Sequence record: ON210138.1
DNA: 64,000 nt
From: Escherichia phage EC106
Strand: one strand, 5' to 3'
The notes under the pieces are model-generated. The model did no database searches. It was not told where the DNA came from and saw only the letters and a list, made by a program, of their open reading frames with translations. Positions within the stretch are counted from its first letter, which is position 1. The number at the start of each line of letters is the position of its first letter. Of the stretch, positions 8,927-22,325 are shown one piece after another. Both the position numbers and the translations under genes were made by a program.

Positions 8927-9349
8927 TTATTTCTCTCTCAGTTGGTTAAGTTTCTTTCTAGAACATTTTAAGTTTTCGGATGAAGAAAAGTCAAGTGTCT
9001 TTTCAGAACGTGGATAGTAGTGCCTATCCCAAGAAGTTTCAACATCGTTAATCAGTGACGCTAGATTACACAGGTCTGTACCACTTTGCAACCTCTTTTT
9101 AAGAGAATCTAGTAAAGCAACTGTGTCTTTAGCTTTACGTCTCGCTGTAGCAACATCTTTCATATGCTCAAATACAGAGCATTTTAAGTCATCTTCATAG
9201 TTTTCAGACAACTCTATTTCATGTTGTATATCAACCATTCTCCTGTGATGGTGAGCATATTCCCGTTGAGCAGCAATGTCAAGTTCTTCCAACTTCTGCA
9301 AAGCTCTAACAAAGTCAGCTATGTCTGGGTGAACAAACATTTTCTGCAT
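8927..9349 (-). CDS. hypothetical protein
   Basis: 140 aa ORF, first gene of the leftward unit at the divergent region 9350-9600. Confidence 0.5.
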   Translation of the reverse strand: MQKMFVHPDIADFVRALQKLEELDIAAQREYAHHHRRMVDIQHEIELSENYEDDLKCSVFEHMKDVATARRKAKDTVALLDSLKKRLQSGTDLCNLASLINDVETSWDRHYYPRSEKTLDFSSSENLKCSRKKLNQLREK

Positions 9350-9520
9350 GTAAGCCTCTTTTAAGTAACTATTAAGTTTTAATCTTTTATCTTAACGTAT
9401 TCTATACGTTATACTTTAAAGCTTTTTAAAAGCTATTAAATAATCTTTTAAGAGTTTTAAAGTATCTGTATAGTTAAACTGTTAAGTAACCTTTTAAGTA
9501 AAAACCCACTTCGCAAAGAT

Positions 9521-9575
9521 TAACACCTTGTCAAGTACATTGTCAACTTGCTTTTTATAATTTTTTGCAGTAATG
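9521..9575 (+). promoter_or_regulatory. divergent promoter region with conserved CCTTGTCAAGTACATTGTCAAC motif and TATAAT box
   Basis: Motif ACACCTTGTCAAGTACATTGTCAAC followed by TATAAT; the same motif recurs at 50737 and 59045. Confidence 0.45.
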
Positions 9576-9606
9576 TATGAGGTTAATGATTTTAGAGGGA
9601 GTAAAA

Positions 9607-11748
9607 ATGGAAAACGTAGATTTTAAAAACTTACATTTGGTTGGTGATACAGAAACTGATGGTTTACTCCTTGAGTTCACTAAAGTGCACGTAATGGCCT
9701 TTGCAGACTATAAATCTGACGATGAAGAGCCACCTGTATGGGTCTTTACAGATGAGCCTATCCTCGGTCACAAGTACACCAAGTACATTAAGGGTGGTTT
9801 ACGTGAAGGTGTTGAGTTTGCGTTAAAGGCAAAACGACTTTGCATCCATAACGGTCTTGGTTATGACTGGTGGGTTTTTAATCACATTGCACCTGATTTA
9901 TGGAACTTTGATAATCCAAAGTGTAAGCCGTGGAGTAATTTCTTTCAGGATTCTCTTATCCAGTCTCGTGTTCAGTGGATGGATAGACCAACTCCAAAGG
10001 GTTATAAAGGTGCTCATGGCTTGGCTGCATGGGGTGCTCGTGTTGGTGTTCGTAAGCCAGAGATTGAGCATTGGGGTGTGTGGAATGCAGAAATCTTCAC
10101 TCGTGTTGTAGAAGATATTCGTATTAACGCCAAAACTAAACGGGCACTTGATAACGAGTATCTCAAGCTTAAGAAGTGTGGTATAGACACTTATGAAACC
10201 TACATGCGAGCTAAAGAAACATCTTTCTGGATGAGTCAACAGGCTATCAATGGTTGGAAAGCTGATAAAGAACTTATGGAGTTCCATGTAAAGGAACTTG
10301 ACAAGTTGACTAATGAGCTTGCTTCAGAGGTTGAACCACATCTACCTCCAACTATTAAGACCAAAGGTAAAGTCACTGGAGAAGAGTTTGCGAAAGCTTG
10401 GAATGAGTATGTTGAAACATTTGGTCATGCAGATGGACTGAAGAGAATTACCAAGTACCCTAAGACAAAGTATCGTCAGCAGGTACGTAATGGTGAGATG
10501 CAGACATACGAAATCAAACCATTTGGTAAGCCAACTACAAAGATTTTTAACATTGGAAAGAGAAATTGCTATACACCAACTAACTCCGTAACTGGTGAAG
10601 AGTACAAGGAAGGCTTTGTAGCAATGAAGGATGCTCGTGCAATTTGCAATGAGTTGAACGCAAAGATTGGTAAGAAATGCAAAGACTGGAAGCCAGTAAA
10701 AACAGTCAAAACTGTGAAGTACTATAACAGCCACGTTGTTAACCACTTTGAACTTGAGTCAAGTCGCTACACAGGTTTGATTGATGCACCATATACACCA
10801 ATTGAGTTTGAAGTTTCTCGTATGACTCAGGTAGCAGTTGTTAAAGATTACTTGAAATCAGTTGGTTGGATTCCAGATGACTGGAATTACAAGAAAGACT
10901 CAGATGGTCGCCCTGTCAAAGTTTGTCGTTTCAAAGACAATAAAAAGATGATTACAAAGCATCCTAAGTGGCAGGAAATGGTTGAGCGGTGTGGTTTGAG
11001 CTATGTTGAGCATGAAGGTGTACAGTACATTGAGCATAACTGGTCTGTGAAGAAGTACACAGATTTGCTTGAGCCTTGTTTAATCCGTACTTCACCAAAA
11101 CTTACTGAATCATCTTACGATACGATTGAAGGTGAACTTGGACAGAAGATTGCGAAGTACTATACTTTGATGCACCGACGCAGAACTATTGAGAACTCAA
11201 AGGACGACGAAAAAGGCTGGTTGAACCAGATTCGTCCAGATGGTCGCCTTAGTGCTGGTGCAATGGTGTTTGGTACTTCAACTGGACGTATGACGCAATA
11301 TGGTATTGTAAACGTACCGTCTGGTGCTGCTGTCTATGGAGCACCTATGAGGGAGGTGTGGATTTGTGAGGAAGGGACTAACGTTGTCTCTGTTGATATG
11401 AACTCAGCCCAGCTAGTTCTTCTTTGTAACTTTATGGGTGATAAAGAGTCCACTAAAGCGGTAACACAAGGTAAAGAAGAGGTTGAGTTCATTCGTCAAG
11501 AAGATGGACGCTATTACTGCAAACACTTTGATGAGTACCTCAACCCAGAGATTGATAAGTACCTTCGCTATGACTCTGAGAATGACCTGTACGTTGTCTA
11601 TTCAGGGACTGATGCACATACACTGAACAGTATCTACTTTAGCTTGAACGATGAGCAGGATATCTTGACTTGTCGAGCTACTCAGGATGAGAATCTTCTT
11701 CATGAGATTAGCAAAGGTCGTAAGAAAGCTAAGAATGGTATCTATGCG
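9607..11748 (+). CDS. DNA polymerase, family A, exon 1 (3'-5' exonuclease and most of polymerase domain)
   Basis: RBS GAGGGAG then ATG at 9607; Exo I motif VGDTETDGL; motif B start KAKNGIY near 11740; frame then runs into intron (in-frame stop at 11788). Exon end approximate (+/-15 nt). Confidence 0.8.
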
Positions 11749-12059
11749 TCAGTGGCGCATGTAAAACGTTGTGAATTGCTGGAAGCCTAAGTCTGTAAAG
11801 ATATGGTAATCAGCAGCGAAGTCTCTGTTAGGACTCCTAAAGCAAATAACATAACTATAGAGATTCCTAACAGAGAAACGTTCAGAGACTATCGAAAAGC
11901 ATACTTAATGTATGAACTGAGTAGAGTAGGGTGGTAAGCTAATGACCATTCCCAAGTGCAACGGTAGTATTACTACTACGTGATATAGTCCGACACTCCG
12001 TAGAAATGCGGAGAAGTTCATAAGAGAACTGGTACACCTTGCGAGTGTATTGACCAGAT
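11749..12059 (+). ncRNA. group I self-splicing intron (no internal ORF) interrupting the DNA polymerase gene
   Basis: Conserved group I core elements in order: P-like AATTGCTGGAAGCC (~11770), Q-like ATGGTAATCAGCAGCG (~11805), R GTTCAGAGACTA (11879-11890), S GATATAGTCCGAC (~11985); polymerase motif B is split across the interruption. Boundaries approximate. Confidence 0.75.
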
Positions 12060-12617
12060 GTATTGTTCGGTGCAGGTGATGAGAAGTTTGCTAAGACGAT
12101 TAAAGCTGCAACTACTCAGGAAGGTGCGCTGACTAAACAGACTTACTTTATACGTTTGCCTAAAATTAAGAAGCTGTTAGATGACTTGGAAGCTGACTAC
12201 AAAGCAACTAAAAAGGCACTTGAAGAGGTGTTTGGTAAGACTGCTGCAATCTCTAAAGGGGGTTTTGTAAAGGTTGCTGGAGCTTGGTTGTGGTGTAAAT
12301 CTCCACATAAGTTATTGAATTATTTGCTCATGGGTTCGGAAAGTCAGATTCAGAACGAGGCAATTAACCTTGCTTGCCGTCGTATGATTGACGAAGGTTT
12401 GATGAAGTTGAACGGTCGTAAACCAGCCATAGGTGCTCGTTTATTGTGCTCCTATCACGACGAGACAAGTTGGGAATGTCCAGAAAGTATGACGGCAGAG
12501 GTGAAGGCTGTCACTGATTGGTATTACGGACAAGCCTCTAAGAACTTAGGGCTAAAGAGTGAAACACTGGTAACTGGTACTGGTAAGGTTGGTAAAAGCT
12601 GGTATGAGGTACATTGA
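12060..12617 (+). CDS. DNA polymerase, family A, exon 2 (motif B end and motif C)
   Basis: Frame opens at 12054; LFGAGDEKFAKTI completes motif B (T7: YGAGDEKIG) and SYHDE is motif C; exon start approximate. Confidence 0.8.
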   Translation, partial: VLFGAGDEKFAKTIKAATTQEGALTKQTYFIRLPKIKKLLDDLEADYKATKKALEEVFGKTAAISKGGFVKVAGAWLWCKSPHKLLNYLLMGSESQIQNEAINLACRRMIDEGLMKLNGRKPAIGARLLCSYHDETSWECPESMTAEVKAVTDWYYGQASKNLGLKSETLVTGTGKVGKSWYEVH

Positions 12618-19967: not shown

Positions 19968-22325
19968 TTAAGCAGTTCTTACCCAAGCCATTAACTTGTA
20001 GAACTGGTTAGTAACACTAAATGCTGAACCAGAACCTGTACCACCAGTGTCACCACTAACCGTATGACTGTGAGCACCAATACCTACAGAGTGGGAATGG
20101 TCGCCAGCACCGCTAGTCCAAAAAGAGAAAGAATGACTGTGGTTCCCTGACGCATAAGTTTCATGACCACCAGACCTATATGCTACTGCATATGATGATG
20201 TTCTATTACCACCTACACCAGTACCGTTCCACGCCTCAATGTAGTGGGTGTGCTCACCATTTGTGCTAGTAGAACCACTACCATAGTGAGAATGACCACC
20301 AGTACTGTTAGTTCCCTTCGTACCATAATCAAAAGATGAAGTGGTAGCAGAGAAACTATGAGTGTGTGAAGGTAAATTACCAACAGCTAACGCCACAGAA
20401 TCTGAACCACCAGTTGTAGCAACATCTGAACCATTTGCTGCTGCAATTCTAATAGTTCTGCCAACACCATTGTTCAGGTACGTCCAAGTTAGACCAGGAA
20501 GTGCTGTATTAGGGTCAACATTACTGTTAAACCACGTTACAATACCTACTGGATAGATTTTGTTAAGGTCTGTAGAGTCACTAATTGCCTGTGCAATCTT
20601 CTGGTCAGTTTCAGCTTTAGTATATGCGCCGATATCTGAAGGGGTTGGTTTAAAATCAGTTGTATAAAACTGTGCTTCTCCAGCGTATTCACCCTTGTCA
20701 TCATAGGCATAGGTGAATGCTGCTAAGCCCAATGAGCCGTACAAAAAAGAGATGCCCCTTGAATGTGCAGCAGTCTTACTAGAGTGCGCAACATGAATTG
20801 CTAAATCTCTTAAGCCGTCAGTAACACCATTATTTCTGACAAAACCTGAGTACCCAATATTAAATGCTGAATGGTCTTCAAGGTTATTTACAGTTACAGT
20901 CATTAAGGATTGGTCTAATAGCTTAGTCTTAACAAAATATCTATTATCTAAGTTAGCCCAATCTTGTGGTTGAACCTGCCCATTAATATACAGGTTCTTA
21001 TTCATACTAACCAATGTTGGCTCTAGGGAAATTTGAGTGCCTGAAAAGCTGTTGCTCAAGGTTACCACGTTAGAATTAGCAGTTCCTACGCCCAGCCACC
21101 ACCTAGATACATTCGCAGTATCAACACCACGGATATATTGTGGCTGTCCCTGTGTTAAGCTCCTTAATACCAAACCCTCGTTGTCAGACACAATAGTTTG
21201 CACATTTGTGAAAGTATTAGATACATTAAGTTTAGCAAGATTACTCAAAGTAGCTGCCGGAATGTATCTAGAGTCAATGTTAGTCCAATCAGAAGGTTGA
21301 ACTTGACCAGTGATTCTTACATTCTTATTAAATGCTACGCCAGACGAGTTTAAGATAATAGAGGTATTGCCCTTGTAATCGTAAAATGTGATATCAGAGC
21401 TTGTATCACCTTTACCAATAAACCATAAATTATTGTACTCGCTATCTTTTGCTAGGATGAATAACTCCTCACCTACATCTTTATTCTGTAACATGATAGC
21501 AGCTTTATTAACTTTTACGGAAATAGGTTTACCGAATGTATTTTCACCGCTAAAAGCATTATTAGCAGCTAACTGTGCAAATCTCTGATTAGCTGCTGTC
21601 TGAGTAAAATATCTAGCATCTAAGTTAGAGAAGTCAGACGGCTGAACTTGACCAGTGATTGATAAAGACCTATTAAAAGAAGCAACCGTGCCTAGAGTGA
21701 GGATGGAACCTTGTTTACTCTCGATTTGAACATCAAGATTACCCCTAATCAGGTTCCCAATAGCCCAAGTTTTTTCATTACTTGCGTCCCTACCTACAAT
21801 AGCAGAGTATGCGCTATCCCCACTCACAGGAGATTTTAATGTTAACTGTTCCCCATTTGCGATGATAGTCTGTTTAGAATTGAATGAGTTTGTAACAGCA
21901 AGCCTTGCATACCTTGCATCATTCTCTTCATTAGCTCTCATCCCAAGTTCATTAGGGCTTGGTTTATTCAGAGTATGATAAACAGTTGCCGACCTTGAAG
22001 CATCTGCAATAGTTAGTTTAAGGCCATTTGCGTTGATTTTAAAAGTCTTTAAAACATCCCCAATAGTAATCTCAGAAGAGCCTGTTGGGTCAAAGACTGC
22101 CTTACCACCATAAAGTAACTTAACAATTCCTAAGTCACCCGTCATAGTGCTGCCAGCAATCTGAACAAATCTTTCTAGTTTAAAAGATGCTAAGAAGTCT
22201 TGATAGGTCATTCGACGGTCTTCATCACCCAGCATTTCAGGTCTCTTTTTAACTCTGACATGAAGAAGGTCATCTGAACGGATTGTATCGATTGAGTTTA
22301 ATTCACTCAACTTGTAATCTGCCAT
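19968..22325 (-). CDS. tail fibre protein with His-rich C-terminal tip
   Basis: 785 aa; three repeats of ITGQVQPSD(F/W)(S/T)N(L/I)D(A/S)RYF, C-terminal HSHS/HTHY-rich region shared with the neighbouring fibre gene. Confidence 0.7.

What the first reader, a model, noticed from the sequence alone, without database searches (positions are those of the whole stretch)
9521..9560. Shared 22 bp motif CCTTGT(C/A)AAGTAC(W)TTGTCAAC at divergent promoters and within type A modules
Near-identical copies sit at 9525-9547 and 50740-50762, both in divergent intergenic regions, and a partial copy at 59045; the type A modules carry the related CCTTGTAAAGTACTTT. Tandem TTGTCAA half-sites suggest a dimeric regulator binding site or a phage promoter class.
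Basis: seen in the sequence. Interest (0 to 1): 0.5.

Follow-up and report, generated by a model that had tools for sequence, protein, structure and literature searches.

The report
Doubled -35 box in phage promoters
The shared 22-bp motif is, read on the opposite strand, the upstream half of ordinary host-type (sigma-70) promoters of a Felix O1-like phage. Its one unusual feature is a second, perfectly conserved TTGACA box sitting inside the promoter spacer.

Summary
Exact copies lie at 9526-9547 and 50737-50758, so the second coordinate given was 3 bases off. The window is a Felixounavirus genome. On the minus strand the motif reads GTTGACA-N6-TTGACAAGG, which is two perfect sigma-70 -35 hexamers 12 bp apart.

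A TAnnnT -10 hexamer sits 17-18 bp after the first hexamer, and an A-tract precedes it. A third copy with the same architecture lies at 59405-59423.

These sites are the leftward promoters of two long transcription units and of a short leader near the end of the early region. One is the published Felix O1 'P41', and both divergent-region sites are annotated as promoters in phage AYO145A. The 'type A modules' are also sigma-70 promoters (TTTACA-N17-TAnnnT). They share little with the motif beyond the -35 box.

A dimeric regulator site is not supported. What remains unexplained is why the second hexamer, at about -23 to -18, is as conserved as the true -35. The finding is a modest variant of a known kind of element.

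The parts
9541..9546 (-). P_A hexamer 1: TTGACA, the -35 element of the leftward promoter upstream of gene 8927-9349. This gene is the Felix O1 ORF97 homologue and opens the unit carrying dNMP kinase, helicase and ribonucleotide reductase genes.
   Evidence: Exact consensus. Invariant in 20 distinct relatives. Annotated as the promoter TTGACA-N18-TAATCT in AYO145A.
9529..9534 (-). P_A hexamer 2: a second TTGACA, 12 bp downstream of hexamer 1, inside the spacer at about -24 to -19.
   Evidence: Invariant in 20 distinct relatives, while 4 of the 6 bases between the hexamers vary.
9517..9525 (-). P_A extended -10: TGT-TAATCT, 18 bp after hexamer 1.
   Evidence: Relatives carry TAATCT or TAGTCT, and TGT or TGG. 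T1, A2, T6 and the upstream TG are kept.
9547..9556 (-). A-tract AAAAAGCAAG directly upstream of P_A hexamer 1, resembling an UP element. On the + strand the same bases (CTTGCTTTTT) hold the -35 of the DNA polymerase promoter.
   Evidence: Invariant in all relatives.
9548..9576 (+). Rightward promoter candidate for DNA polymerase: TTGCTT (9548-9553), N17, TAATGT (9571-9576).
   Evidence: CTTGCTTTTT is invariant. The -10 is TAATGT, TAAGGT, TAGGGT or TAGTGT in relatives, so TAnnGT is kept. The TATAAT at 9556-9561 is not conserved.
50752..50757 (-). P_B hexamer 1: TTGACA, the -35 element of the leftward promoter upstream of 50236-50607 (DUF5681 protein). The Ro-like protein gene, the tRNA cluster and the structural genes follow.
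   Evidence: Invariant in 14 distinct relatives. Corresponds to the published Felix O1 P41.
50740..50745 (-). P_B hexamer 2: a second TTGACA, 12 bp downstream, at about -23 to -18.
   Evidence: Invariant, while all 6 bases between the hexamers vary: AAGTAC, AAGGAC, TTCCTC, AGCCTC, AGGGGA, AATGAC.
50729..50734 (-). P_B -10 hexamer TAGGCT, 17 bp after hexamer 1.
   Evidence: Relatives carry TAGGCT, TAGCCT, TAAGTT or TAGTGT. Positions 1, 2 and 6 are fixed and positions 3-5 vary.
50783..50811 (+). Rightward promoter candidate for the 50857-57324 block: TTGACT-N17-TACCAT.
   Evidence: Found by the consensus scan. Invariant in relatives.
59395..59423 (-). P_D, a third member of the class: TTGACA (59418-59423), N7, TTGACA (59405-59410), TTGG, TAACTT (59395-59400). 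Hexamer 1 to the -10 is 17 bp.
   Evidence: In 29 relatives both hexamers are kept (one TTGACG), 5 of the 7 bases between them vary, and the -10 is TAACTT, TACATT, TAGATT or TAATGT.
60029..60072 (-). Type A module copy: TTTACA (60059-60064), N17, TATCTT (60036-60041). Hairpin arms GGGGCTTA / TAAGCCCC flank the spacer and the -10.
61244..61337 (-). Type A module: promoter TTTACA-N17-TACCTT inside a GC-stem hairpin, followed by a conserved leader and ribosome-binding site.
62041..62134 (-). Type A module: TTTACA-N17-TATCTT.
63340..63433 (-). Type A module: TTTACA-N17-TACCTT.
63687..63780 (-). Type A module: TTTACA-N17-TAAAGT.

Best explanation
The 22-bp motif is the -35 region and upstream spacer of strong host-RNA-polymerase (sigma-70) promoters that fire leftwards on the window's minus strand.

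The architecture is as follows: an A-rich tract; a perfect TTGACA (-35); 6 variable bases (7 at the third site); a second perfect TTGACA; 4-6 bases; then a -10 hexamer TAnnnT. The -10 lies 17-18 bp after the first hexamer and has a TGn extension at site A.

The site at 9526-9547 drives the unit that starts with the ORF97 homologue and runs through the nucleotide-metabolism and replication genes. The site at 50737-50758 drives the DUF5681 gene, the Ro-like protein gene and the tRNA cluster, and heads the structural-gene block. A third copy at 59405-59423 lies near the end of the early region.

The rightward genes in the two divergent regions use separate promoters placed back to back with these. 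The type A modules are another set of sigma-70 promoters (TTTACA-N17-TAnnnT). Their resemblance to the motif is mainly the -35 box itself.

Shown here: the sequence architecture, its conservation pattern, and its position and orientation. Inferred: that RNA polymerase starts about 7 nt after the -10, and that these promoters act early. The role of the second hexamer is not shown. My preferred guess is a second docking site for sigma region 4. That could raise polymerase capture at promoters whose -10 boxes are weak, or hold sigma during early transcription.
For: On the minus strand the motif is two consensus -35 hexamers. There are 3 exact TTGACA-N6/7-TTGACA sites in the window against a mean of 0.075 in 1000 dinucleotide shuffles. 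All 3 have TAnnnT at 17-18 bp, where 0.003 is expected.

Phylogenetic footprint in IMG/VR relatives:
- hexamer 1 varies in 1 of 18 columns
- hexamer 2 varies in 0 of 18 columns
- the remaining spacer varies in 23 of 34 columns
- -10 positions 1, 2 and 6 vary in 0 of 9 columns
- -10 positions 3-5 vary in 7 of 9 columns

This is the classic signature of -35 and -10 elements. All three sites are intergenic and point the same way as the next gene. P_D has no + strand gene nearby, which fixes the functional strand.

Prior annotation agrees. Felix O1 P41 (TTGACA(N15)TATAGG, 21515-21541) is this site. AYO145A annotates TTGACA-N18-TAATCT at site A and a promoter at site B.

The distant relative phiEa21-4 has two exact TTGACA-N6-TTGACA-N5-TAnnnT sites, both pointing with the genes. 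Felix O1 encodes no RNA polymerase of its own, and its replication ORFs are transcribed within 5 min (PMC3185647). In 64 distinct type A copies, TTTACA-N17-TAnnnT is kept while the middle of the -10 varies.
Against: No transcription start site has been mapped for any Felixounavirus in the literature I could search. The -10 hexamers match the consensus at only 3 of 6 positions, so the simple consensus scan did not call these promoters. A standard sigma-70 promoter gives no reason for an invariant TTGACA at -23 to -18, so the model is incomplete. P_B heads a block that includes late structural genes, which a constitutive early promoter alone does not explain.
Confidence: 0.85

Rival explanations
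1. The two TTGACA / TTGTCAA repeats are an operator for a phage- or host-encoded regulator that binds direct repeats. Such a regulator could be an early-shutoff repressor or an activator, acting on top of or instead of sigma recognition.
For: Hexamer 2 is invariant although it lies in a promoter spacer, where sigma-70 makes no known base-specific contact. Direct repeats overlapping a -35 are how PhoB/OmpR-type and lambda CII-type factors work (general knowledge). How Felix O1 controls transcription over time is unknown.
Against: The conserved unit is exactly the 6-bp sigma-70 consensus, with no conserved flanking bases. The phasing is 12 bp at two sites and 13 bp at the third, and the distance to the -10 is 4-6 bp. 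That is hard to reconcile with a rigid tandem dimer. No palindrome overlaps the motif. No HTH, sigma-like or anti-sigma family was found in the 20 adjacent or early proteins scanned, though most of those are of unknown function.
Confidence: 0.1
2. These are two overlapping promoters offset by 12 bp. Each hexamer would serve as the -35 for its own -10, giving two start sites.
For: Tandem promoters are common. At the phiEa21-4 tRNA promoter, the second of two near-tandem hexamers (TTGAAA-N6-TTGACA) is the one with a good -10 at 17 bp (TATGAT).
Against: No conserved TAnnnT lies 15-19 bp after hexamer 2 at any of the three sites. Site A has AAGTGG. Site B has TACTTA or CACTTA, and its position shifts with an indel. 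Site D has GGGGGT.
Confidence: 0.03
3. The shared 22-mer has no function of its own. It is a recent duplication or gene conversion between the two divergent regions, or a replication-origin iteron pair.
For: The two copies are 21/22 identical in this phage, including the non-conserved GTAC. That hints at some sequence exchange between promoters, and the same AAAGTAC precedes the type A -35.
Against: The hexamers stay invariant across lineages in which the intervening bases have diverged independently at each site. There are only two repeats per site and no DnaA boxes. The position is locked to a -10 hexamer, and a third site has different surrounding sequence.
Confidence: 0.02

Closest known systems
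Canonical E. coli/Salmonella sigma-70 promoter with an UP-like A-tract, as in the strong early promoters of virulent coliphages
   Same: Consensus TTGACA at -35, a 17-18 bp spacer, a -10 with the key T1/A2/T6 positions, a TGn extension at site A, an A-rich tract at about -45 to -38, an intergenic position, and the same orientation as the downstream genes.
   Different: A second perfect and invariant TTGACA lies in the spacer at about -23 to -18. The -10 boxes are weak (3/6), so the promoters should depend strongly on the -35.
Felix O1 'P41' (Whichard et al. 2010, PMC3185647) and the promoter features in the GenBank record of phage AYO145A (NC_028825)
   Same: These are the same sites. P41 is the window's 50737-50758 site. 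AYO145A's 65801-65830 feature is TTGACA-N18-TAATCT, equivalent to the window's 9517-9546.
   Different: The Felix O1 paper paired hexamer 1 with TATAGG at N15. That hexamer is TGTAGG in most relatives, so it is not a conserved -10. The paper also reported no promoter in the 96/97 region, where the motif is in fact present. Neither the paper nor the AYO145A record's feature notes mention the tandem hexamer.
Lambda PR' promoter with its second -35-like TTGACT element (sigma-70-dependent pause and Q loading). This comparison comes from my own knowledge and was not tested here.
   Same: One promoter region carries two -35-type hexamers that the same sigma domain could read at different stages.
   Different: In lambda the second hexamer sits next to the start site, 1 bp upstream of a -10-like pause element. 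Here it lies upstream of the promoter's own -10 by 4-6 bp. No Q-like gene is known in these phages.
Direct-repeat activator sites that overlap the -35: the Pho box (CTGTCAT-N4-CTGTCAT, 11-bp period) and lambda CII (TTGC-N6-TTGC, 10-bp period)
   Same: Two direct repeats in the -35 region. The + strand TTGTCAA resembles the Pho-box core TGTCA.
   Different: The period is 12-13 bp, not 10-11 bp. The repeat is itself the sigma-70 consensus rather than replacing a poor -35. The orientation relative to the promoter is opposite to that of a Pho box.

Membership tests
sigma-70 (housekeeping) promoter | -35 hexamer close to TTGACA | tested here: met
   6/6 match at hexamer 1 of all three sites. Invariant in relatives apart from one TTGACG.
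sigma-70 (housekeeping) promoter | -10 hexamer TAnnnT placed 16-18 bp downstream of the -35 | tested here: met
   TAATCT at N18, TAGGCT at N17 and TAACTT at N17. T1, A2 and T6 are fixed in relatives while positions 3-5 vary. Only 3/6 match the consensus TATAAT.
sigma-70 (housekeeping) promoter | Intergenic, upstream of and pointing the same way as a gene or operon | tested here: met
   All three sites are intergenic on the minus strand, upstream of minus-strand genes.
sigma-70 (housekeeping) promoter | A mapped transcription start, or in vitro initiation by the holoenzyme | not testable with these tools
   No TSS data were found for the genus. There is only RT-PCR timing of ORFs in Felix O1.
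Extended -10 (TGn) promoter | TG at -15/-14, one base upstream of the -10 hexamer | tested here: inconclusive
   Met at site A, where TGT-TAATCT or TGG-TAGTCT is kept. Not met at site B, where TG abuts the hexamer, or at P_D.
Response-regulator direct-repeat operator (Pho box / OmpR-PhoB type) | Two direct repeats with a 10-11 bp period that replace a weak -35 | tested here: not met
   The period is 12 bp at sites A and B and 13 bp at P_D. The repeat is the -35 consensus itself.
Lambda CII / P22 C1 activator site | TTGC-N6-TTGC tetrads flanking a poor -35 | tested here: not met
   There are no TTGC tetrads, and the repeats are TTGACA at a 12-13 bp period.
Palindromic operator of a dimeric repressor | Inverted-repeat symmetry across the site, maintained in relatives | tested here: not met
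   No inverted repeat overlaps the motif. The local AAGTACTT palindrome of site B is lost in relatives, which have AAGGAC, TTCCTC and others.
T4 middle promoter (MotA box) | TGCTTtA box centred near -30 and 11-13 bp from a TAnnnT -10, together with motA/asiA genes | tested here: not met
   The + strand TTGCTTTTTA at 9548-9557 lies 13-15 bp from TAATGT depending on where the box is taken to end, so it reads better as a -35 at N17. The Felix O1 authors found no proteins that modify the polymerase. None appeared among the 20 proteins scanned, and the rest of the proteome was not scanned.
Lambda PR'-type sigma-dependent pause / Q-loading site | A -35-like element about 1 bp upstream of a -10-like element in the initially transcribed region | tested here: not met
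   Hexamer 2 lies upstream of the promoter's own -10. The bases one position after it are GGTGTT, GGTGTA and TGGTAA, none of which resembles a -10.
Replication-origin iterons | Several (at least 3-4) repeats with an adjacent AT-rich unwinding element or DnaA boxes | tested here: not met
   There are only two hexamers per site, locked in register with a -10.

The most novel reading that the evidence does not exclude
The invariant second TTGACA is a dedicated cis-element and not a spare -35. One possibility is that sigma-70 region 4 relocates to it during initial transcription, so that polymerase leaves these promoters in a modified, terminator-resistant or sigma-retaining state. Another is that an unidentified small phage protein binds it to switch the early promoters off. 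Either would bear on two questions the Felix O1 paper left open: how transcription passes the many intrinsic terminators, and how timing is controlled. The CTTAAAAG-rich conserved leaders just downstream of all three promoters could be part of the same device.
Probability: 0.15. Interest if true: 0.6.

Novelty: new variant of a known kind. Interest (0 to 1): 0.3.

Why it matters
Felix O1-like phages are widely used for Salmonella and E. coli typing, biocontrol and therapy. Even so, their transcription programme is essentially unmapped. This analysis places the leftward promoters of the two long transcription units. It corrects the -10 assignment of the published P41. It finds the promoter that the 2010 paper reported as absent from the ORF96/97 region.

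The strictly conserved second -35 box is a small, concrete puzzle that a few reporter constructs could settle. If it turns out to be more than redundancy, it would show that a spacer element can tune host polymerase at phage early promoters. Otherwise the finding is ordinary promoter biology.

Tried and rejected
(1) + strand readings. The TATAAT at 9556-9561, 8 bp after the motif, is not conserved: relatives have GTGTCG, GAAACT and others. Neither TTGTCA has a usable -10 at 15-19 bp.

(2) A second promoter using hexamer 2. No conserved -10 was found.

(3) AYO145A's pairing at site B of TTGACA with TATAAA. The spacing is 11 or 23 bp, and the hexamer is broken in some relatives.

(4) The 48702-48719 near-tandem (TTGACA-N6-TTGATA). 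Its second 'hexamer' varies (TTAATA, TCGATA) and is the 3' arm of a terminator hairpin. It is therefore not a member of the class, although TTGACA-N17-TAATAT there is a conserved promoter.

(5) The partial copy at 59045. My pattern search did not find it in the relatives.

(6) A collection-wide test of whether 12-bp phasing is special. The test is uninformative, because chance second hexamers in genuine promoters can account for the hits.

(7) A search for a cognate regulator with Pfam and PHROGs on 20 proteins. It returned only unknown-function families, DUF5681, a Ro/VWA-like RNA-binding protein and Ig-like tail proteins.

(8) Literature searches for mapped starts or transcriptomes of Felixounavirus and for tandem -35 elements found nothing relevant.

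(9) Rfam found no RNA family at the sites.

Full report
**What the window is.** The region around the first site is 95-98% identical to Felix O1-like myoviruses (genus Felixounavirus) such as Salmonella phages GEC_vB_NS7 and Mushroom. The window holds 25 tRNA genes. Gene blocks change strand at about 9.4-9.6 kb, 19.3 kb, 50.6-50.9 kb and 57.3-59.2 kb. It is the reverse complement of the usual Felix O1 numbering. The divergent region at 9350-9606 corresponds to Felix O1 ORF96/97, and the one at 50608-50856 corresponds to ORF40/41.

**Check of the observation.** The 22-mer occurs exactly at 9526-9547 and 50737-50758, with no matches in 100 shuffles. The shorter CCTTGTMAAGTAC also hits five type A modules. 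The partial copy at 59045 shares only 10 bases.

**Strand and identity.** The reverse complement is GTTGACA-A(T/A)GTAC-TTGACA-AGG. That is two perfect copies of the sigma-70 -35 consensus with a 12-bp period. I collected the homologous intergenic regions from about 30 IMG/VR Felixounavirus, Mooglevirus and Suspvirus-like contigs and aligned them.
- Both hexamers are invariant at both sites.
- The six bases between them change freely: ATGTAC, ATGCAC, ATACAC, ATGCGC, AATAAC, ATTCAC and AAGCAC at site A; AAGTAC, AAGGAC, TTCCTC, AGCCTC, AGGGGA and AATGAC at site B.
- Downstream, site A keeps TGT-TAATCT or TGG-TAGTCT 18 bp after the first hexamer.
- Site B keeps TAGGCT, TAGCCT, TAAGTT or TAGTGT 17 bp after it. 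Positions 1, 2 and 6 are fixed and positions 3-5 vary, which is the signature of a -10 hexamer.
- An invariant A-tract (AAAAAGCAAG at site A, AAAAAAGTTG at site B) precedes the first hexamer, like a proximal UP element.

**A third member of the class.** A scan for tandem hexamers found TTGACA-ATCCCTA-TTGACA-TTGG-TAACTT at 59395-59423 on the minus strand. It lies between two minus-strand genes, so only the TTGACA orientation makes sense there. In 29 relatives both hexamers are kept (one TTGACG), 5 of the 7 bases between them vary, and the -10 is TAACTT, TACATT, TAGATT or TAATGT.

**Statistics.**
- The window holds 3 exact TTGACA-N6/7-TTGACA sites against a mean of 0.075 in 1000 dinucleotide shuffles (0 of 1000 shuffles reached 3).
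- All 3 carry TAnnnT at the correct distance, where 0.003 is expected.
- Variable alignment columns: hexamer 2, 0 of 18; hexamer 1, 1 of 18; the rest of the spacer, 23 of 34.
- The remaining 23 kb of the closest relative has no further intergenic copy.

**Link to prior annotation.** The Felix O1 genome paper lists P41 as TTGACA(N15)TATAGG at 21515-21541. It states that no other promoter-like sequence was found in the 40/41 or 96/97 regions, and that temporal control and passage of terminators are unexplained. Reading Felix O1 itself gives two results.
- P41 is AAAAAAGTTG-TTGACA-AAGCAC-TTGACA-AGGTA-TAGGCT.
- The 96/97 region contains AAAAAGCAAG-TTGACA-ATGCAC-TTGACA-AGGTGT-TAATCT.

The second promoter was therefore missed in that paper. 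Its TATAGG -10 is TGTAGG in most relatives, which favours TAGGCT at N17. The GenBank record of phage AYO145A already annotates site A as TTGACA-N18-TAATCT and site B as a promoter. The promoter identity is thus known, or at least previously predicted. Neither the paper nor the AYO145A feature notes mention the tandem hexamer.

**The partner promoters.**
- The + strand genes have their own signals. DNA polymerase has TTGCTT (9548-9553), N17, TAATGT (9571-9576). CTTGCTTTTT is invariant and TAnnGT is kept, whereas the eye-catching TATAAT at 9556-9561 is not conserved.
- The 50857 block has TTGACT-N17-TACCAT at 50783-50811.
- The motif sits at different distances from these two promoters, so it is not a shared upstream element for them.

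**Type A modules.** Across 64 distinct copies in relatives, the module reads (A/T)TAAAGTAC-TTTACA-N17-TAnnnT. The -10 is TAAAGT, TATCTT, TACCTT, TAAGAT, TACAGT, TATAGT, TAGTAT, TAACTT or TAGAGT. The spacer and -10 are bracketed by GGGGCTTA / TAAGCCCC arms that show compensatory and wobble changes. These modules are sigma-70 promoters embedded in a hairpin. What they share with the 22-mer is the -35 box. In this particular phage they also share the preceding AAAGTAC, which is not conserved at sites A and B.

**The second hexamer.**
- No conserved -10 lies 15-19 bp after it.
- No palindrome overlaps it.
- Its conserved footprint is exactly six bases.
- Its offset is 12 or 13 bp from hexamer 1, and 4-6 bp from the -10.
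- The distant relative phiEa21-4 has single hexamers at the homologous divergent promoters. It does have two exact TTGACA-N6-TTGACA-N5-TAnnnT sites elsewhere, after gp31 and before rIIB, both pointing with the genes.

These facts fit recognition of each hexamer by the same reader, most simply sigma region 4. They fit a rigid dimeric regulator less well. The function itself remains an inference.

**Attempts to generalise.** I tried to see whether the architecture is general. They therefore give no evidence either way. Pfam and PHROGs scans of 20 adjacent or early proteins found no candidate regulator.

**Verdict.** The motif is the -35 region of leftward sigma-70 promoters, which are already predicted in part of the literature. 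The dimeric-regulator reading is not supported. The only unusual feature is an unexplained, strictly conserved second -35 box in the spacer.

Noticed in passing
59395-59423 (minus strand): A third tandem -35 promoter, TTGACA-N7-TTGACA-N4-TAACTT, conserved in 29 relatives. It is followed about 70 bp downstream by a second promoter, TTGCAA-N17-TAAATT, and then by a GGGGAGGG/CCTCCCC hairpin upstream of a 58-aa gene (59060-59236).
   Followed up: yes
48600-48731 (minus strand): Immediately after the stop codon of the 471-aa gene lies a hairpin, AAAGGGTAT...ATACCCTTT. It encloses a TTGACA whose -10 (TAATAT) follows at N17, so a terminator and a promoter overlap. About 90 bp further on is a conserved promoter, TTGACA-N18-(TGT)TAAAGT, roughly 25 nt before the first tRNA (tRNA-Pro, 48572).
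   Followed up: partly
9358-9498, 50629-50708, 58308-58974, 59356-59363 and the type A hairpins: The word CTTAAAAG occurs 28 times against 5.4 expected. It is concentrated in the conserved leaders about +12 to +40 downstream of all three tandem promoters, as ACTTAAAAGG, and in the 58.3-59.0 kb non-coding stretch. It sometimes forms perfect palindromes, such as TCTTAAAAG-C-CTTTTAAGA at 50629-50647 and AAAGCTTTT-T-AAAAGCT around 9412-9442. One copy (CTCTTAAAA, about 9445-9455) resembles a lambda nut boxA. This could be a regulator or antitermination signal.
   Followed up: partly
9393-9411: A leader palindrome, TAACGTAT-AGA-ATACGTTA. Moogle-like relatives carry a compensatory double change (TATGTAT-AAC-ATACATA), which suggests a selected hairpin or operator about 100 nt into the P_A transcript.
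   Followed up: no
60029-63780 (type A modules): The promoter spacer and -10 are enclosed by GC-rich arms, GGGGCTTA / TAAGCCCC. Relatives show compensatory (GGGGT...ACCCC) and G-U-type variants. No U-tract follows on the gene strand, so this is not a classical terminator. Its purpose is unknown; it could be an operator, a processing site or an attenuator.
   Followed up: partly
11738-12013: A group I intron (Rfam RF00028, 62.9 bits) lies between the two DNA polymerase reading frames (9607-11790 and 12063-12617). An HNH endonuclease ORF follows.
   Followed up: no
57325-59059: A stretch of about 1.7 kb has no ORF of 60 aa or more and lies between convergent blocks. It contains 21-bp repeats (GGTCTTAACAGATTCTTAACA) at 31-bp spacing (58040-58122, plus one at 58448) and repeats of TTATAGAGCTTTA... 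(58320-58837). It may be an origin, a packaging region or a genome terminus.
   Followed up: no
48738-50153 (minus strand): The 471-aa protein just upstream of the tRNA cluster matches DUF2828, DUF7788 and VWA domains and the PHROG family labelled 'RNA-binding protein'. It resembles a Ro60/TROVE protein.
   Followed up: no
L251 8345-8374 and about 33 other IMG/VR loci (L157, L174, L219 and others): A family of T4-like environmental phages carries a conserved element, ATAAAAAGTTG-TTGACA-AAGGGC-TTGACA-nGTGn-TAnnnT, in the short gap just upstream of the late sigma factor gene (gp55 homologue). The element points away from gp55, antisense to both flanking genes.
   Followed up: partly
L091 21310-21370 (phiEa21-4, upstream of gp42): The homologous promoter in phiEa21-4 is TTGACA-N16-TAGAAT. 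It is followed at about +1 to +13 by TTGACA-g-AAGAAT, a -35-like box one base before a -10-like box. This resembles the sigma-dependent pause arrangement of lambda PR'.
   Followed up: no
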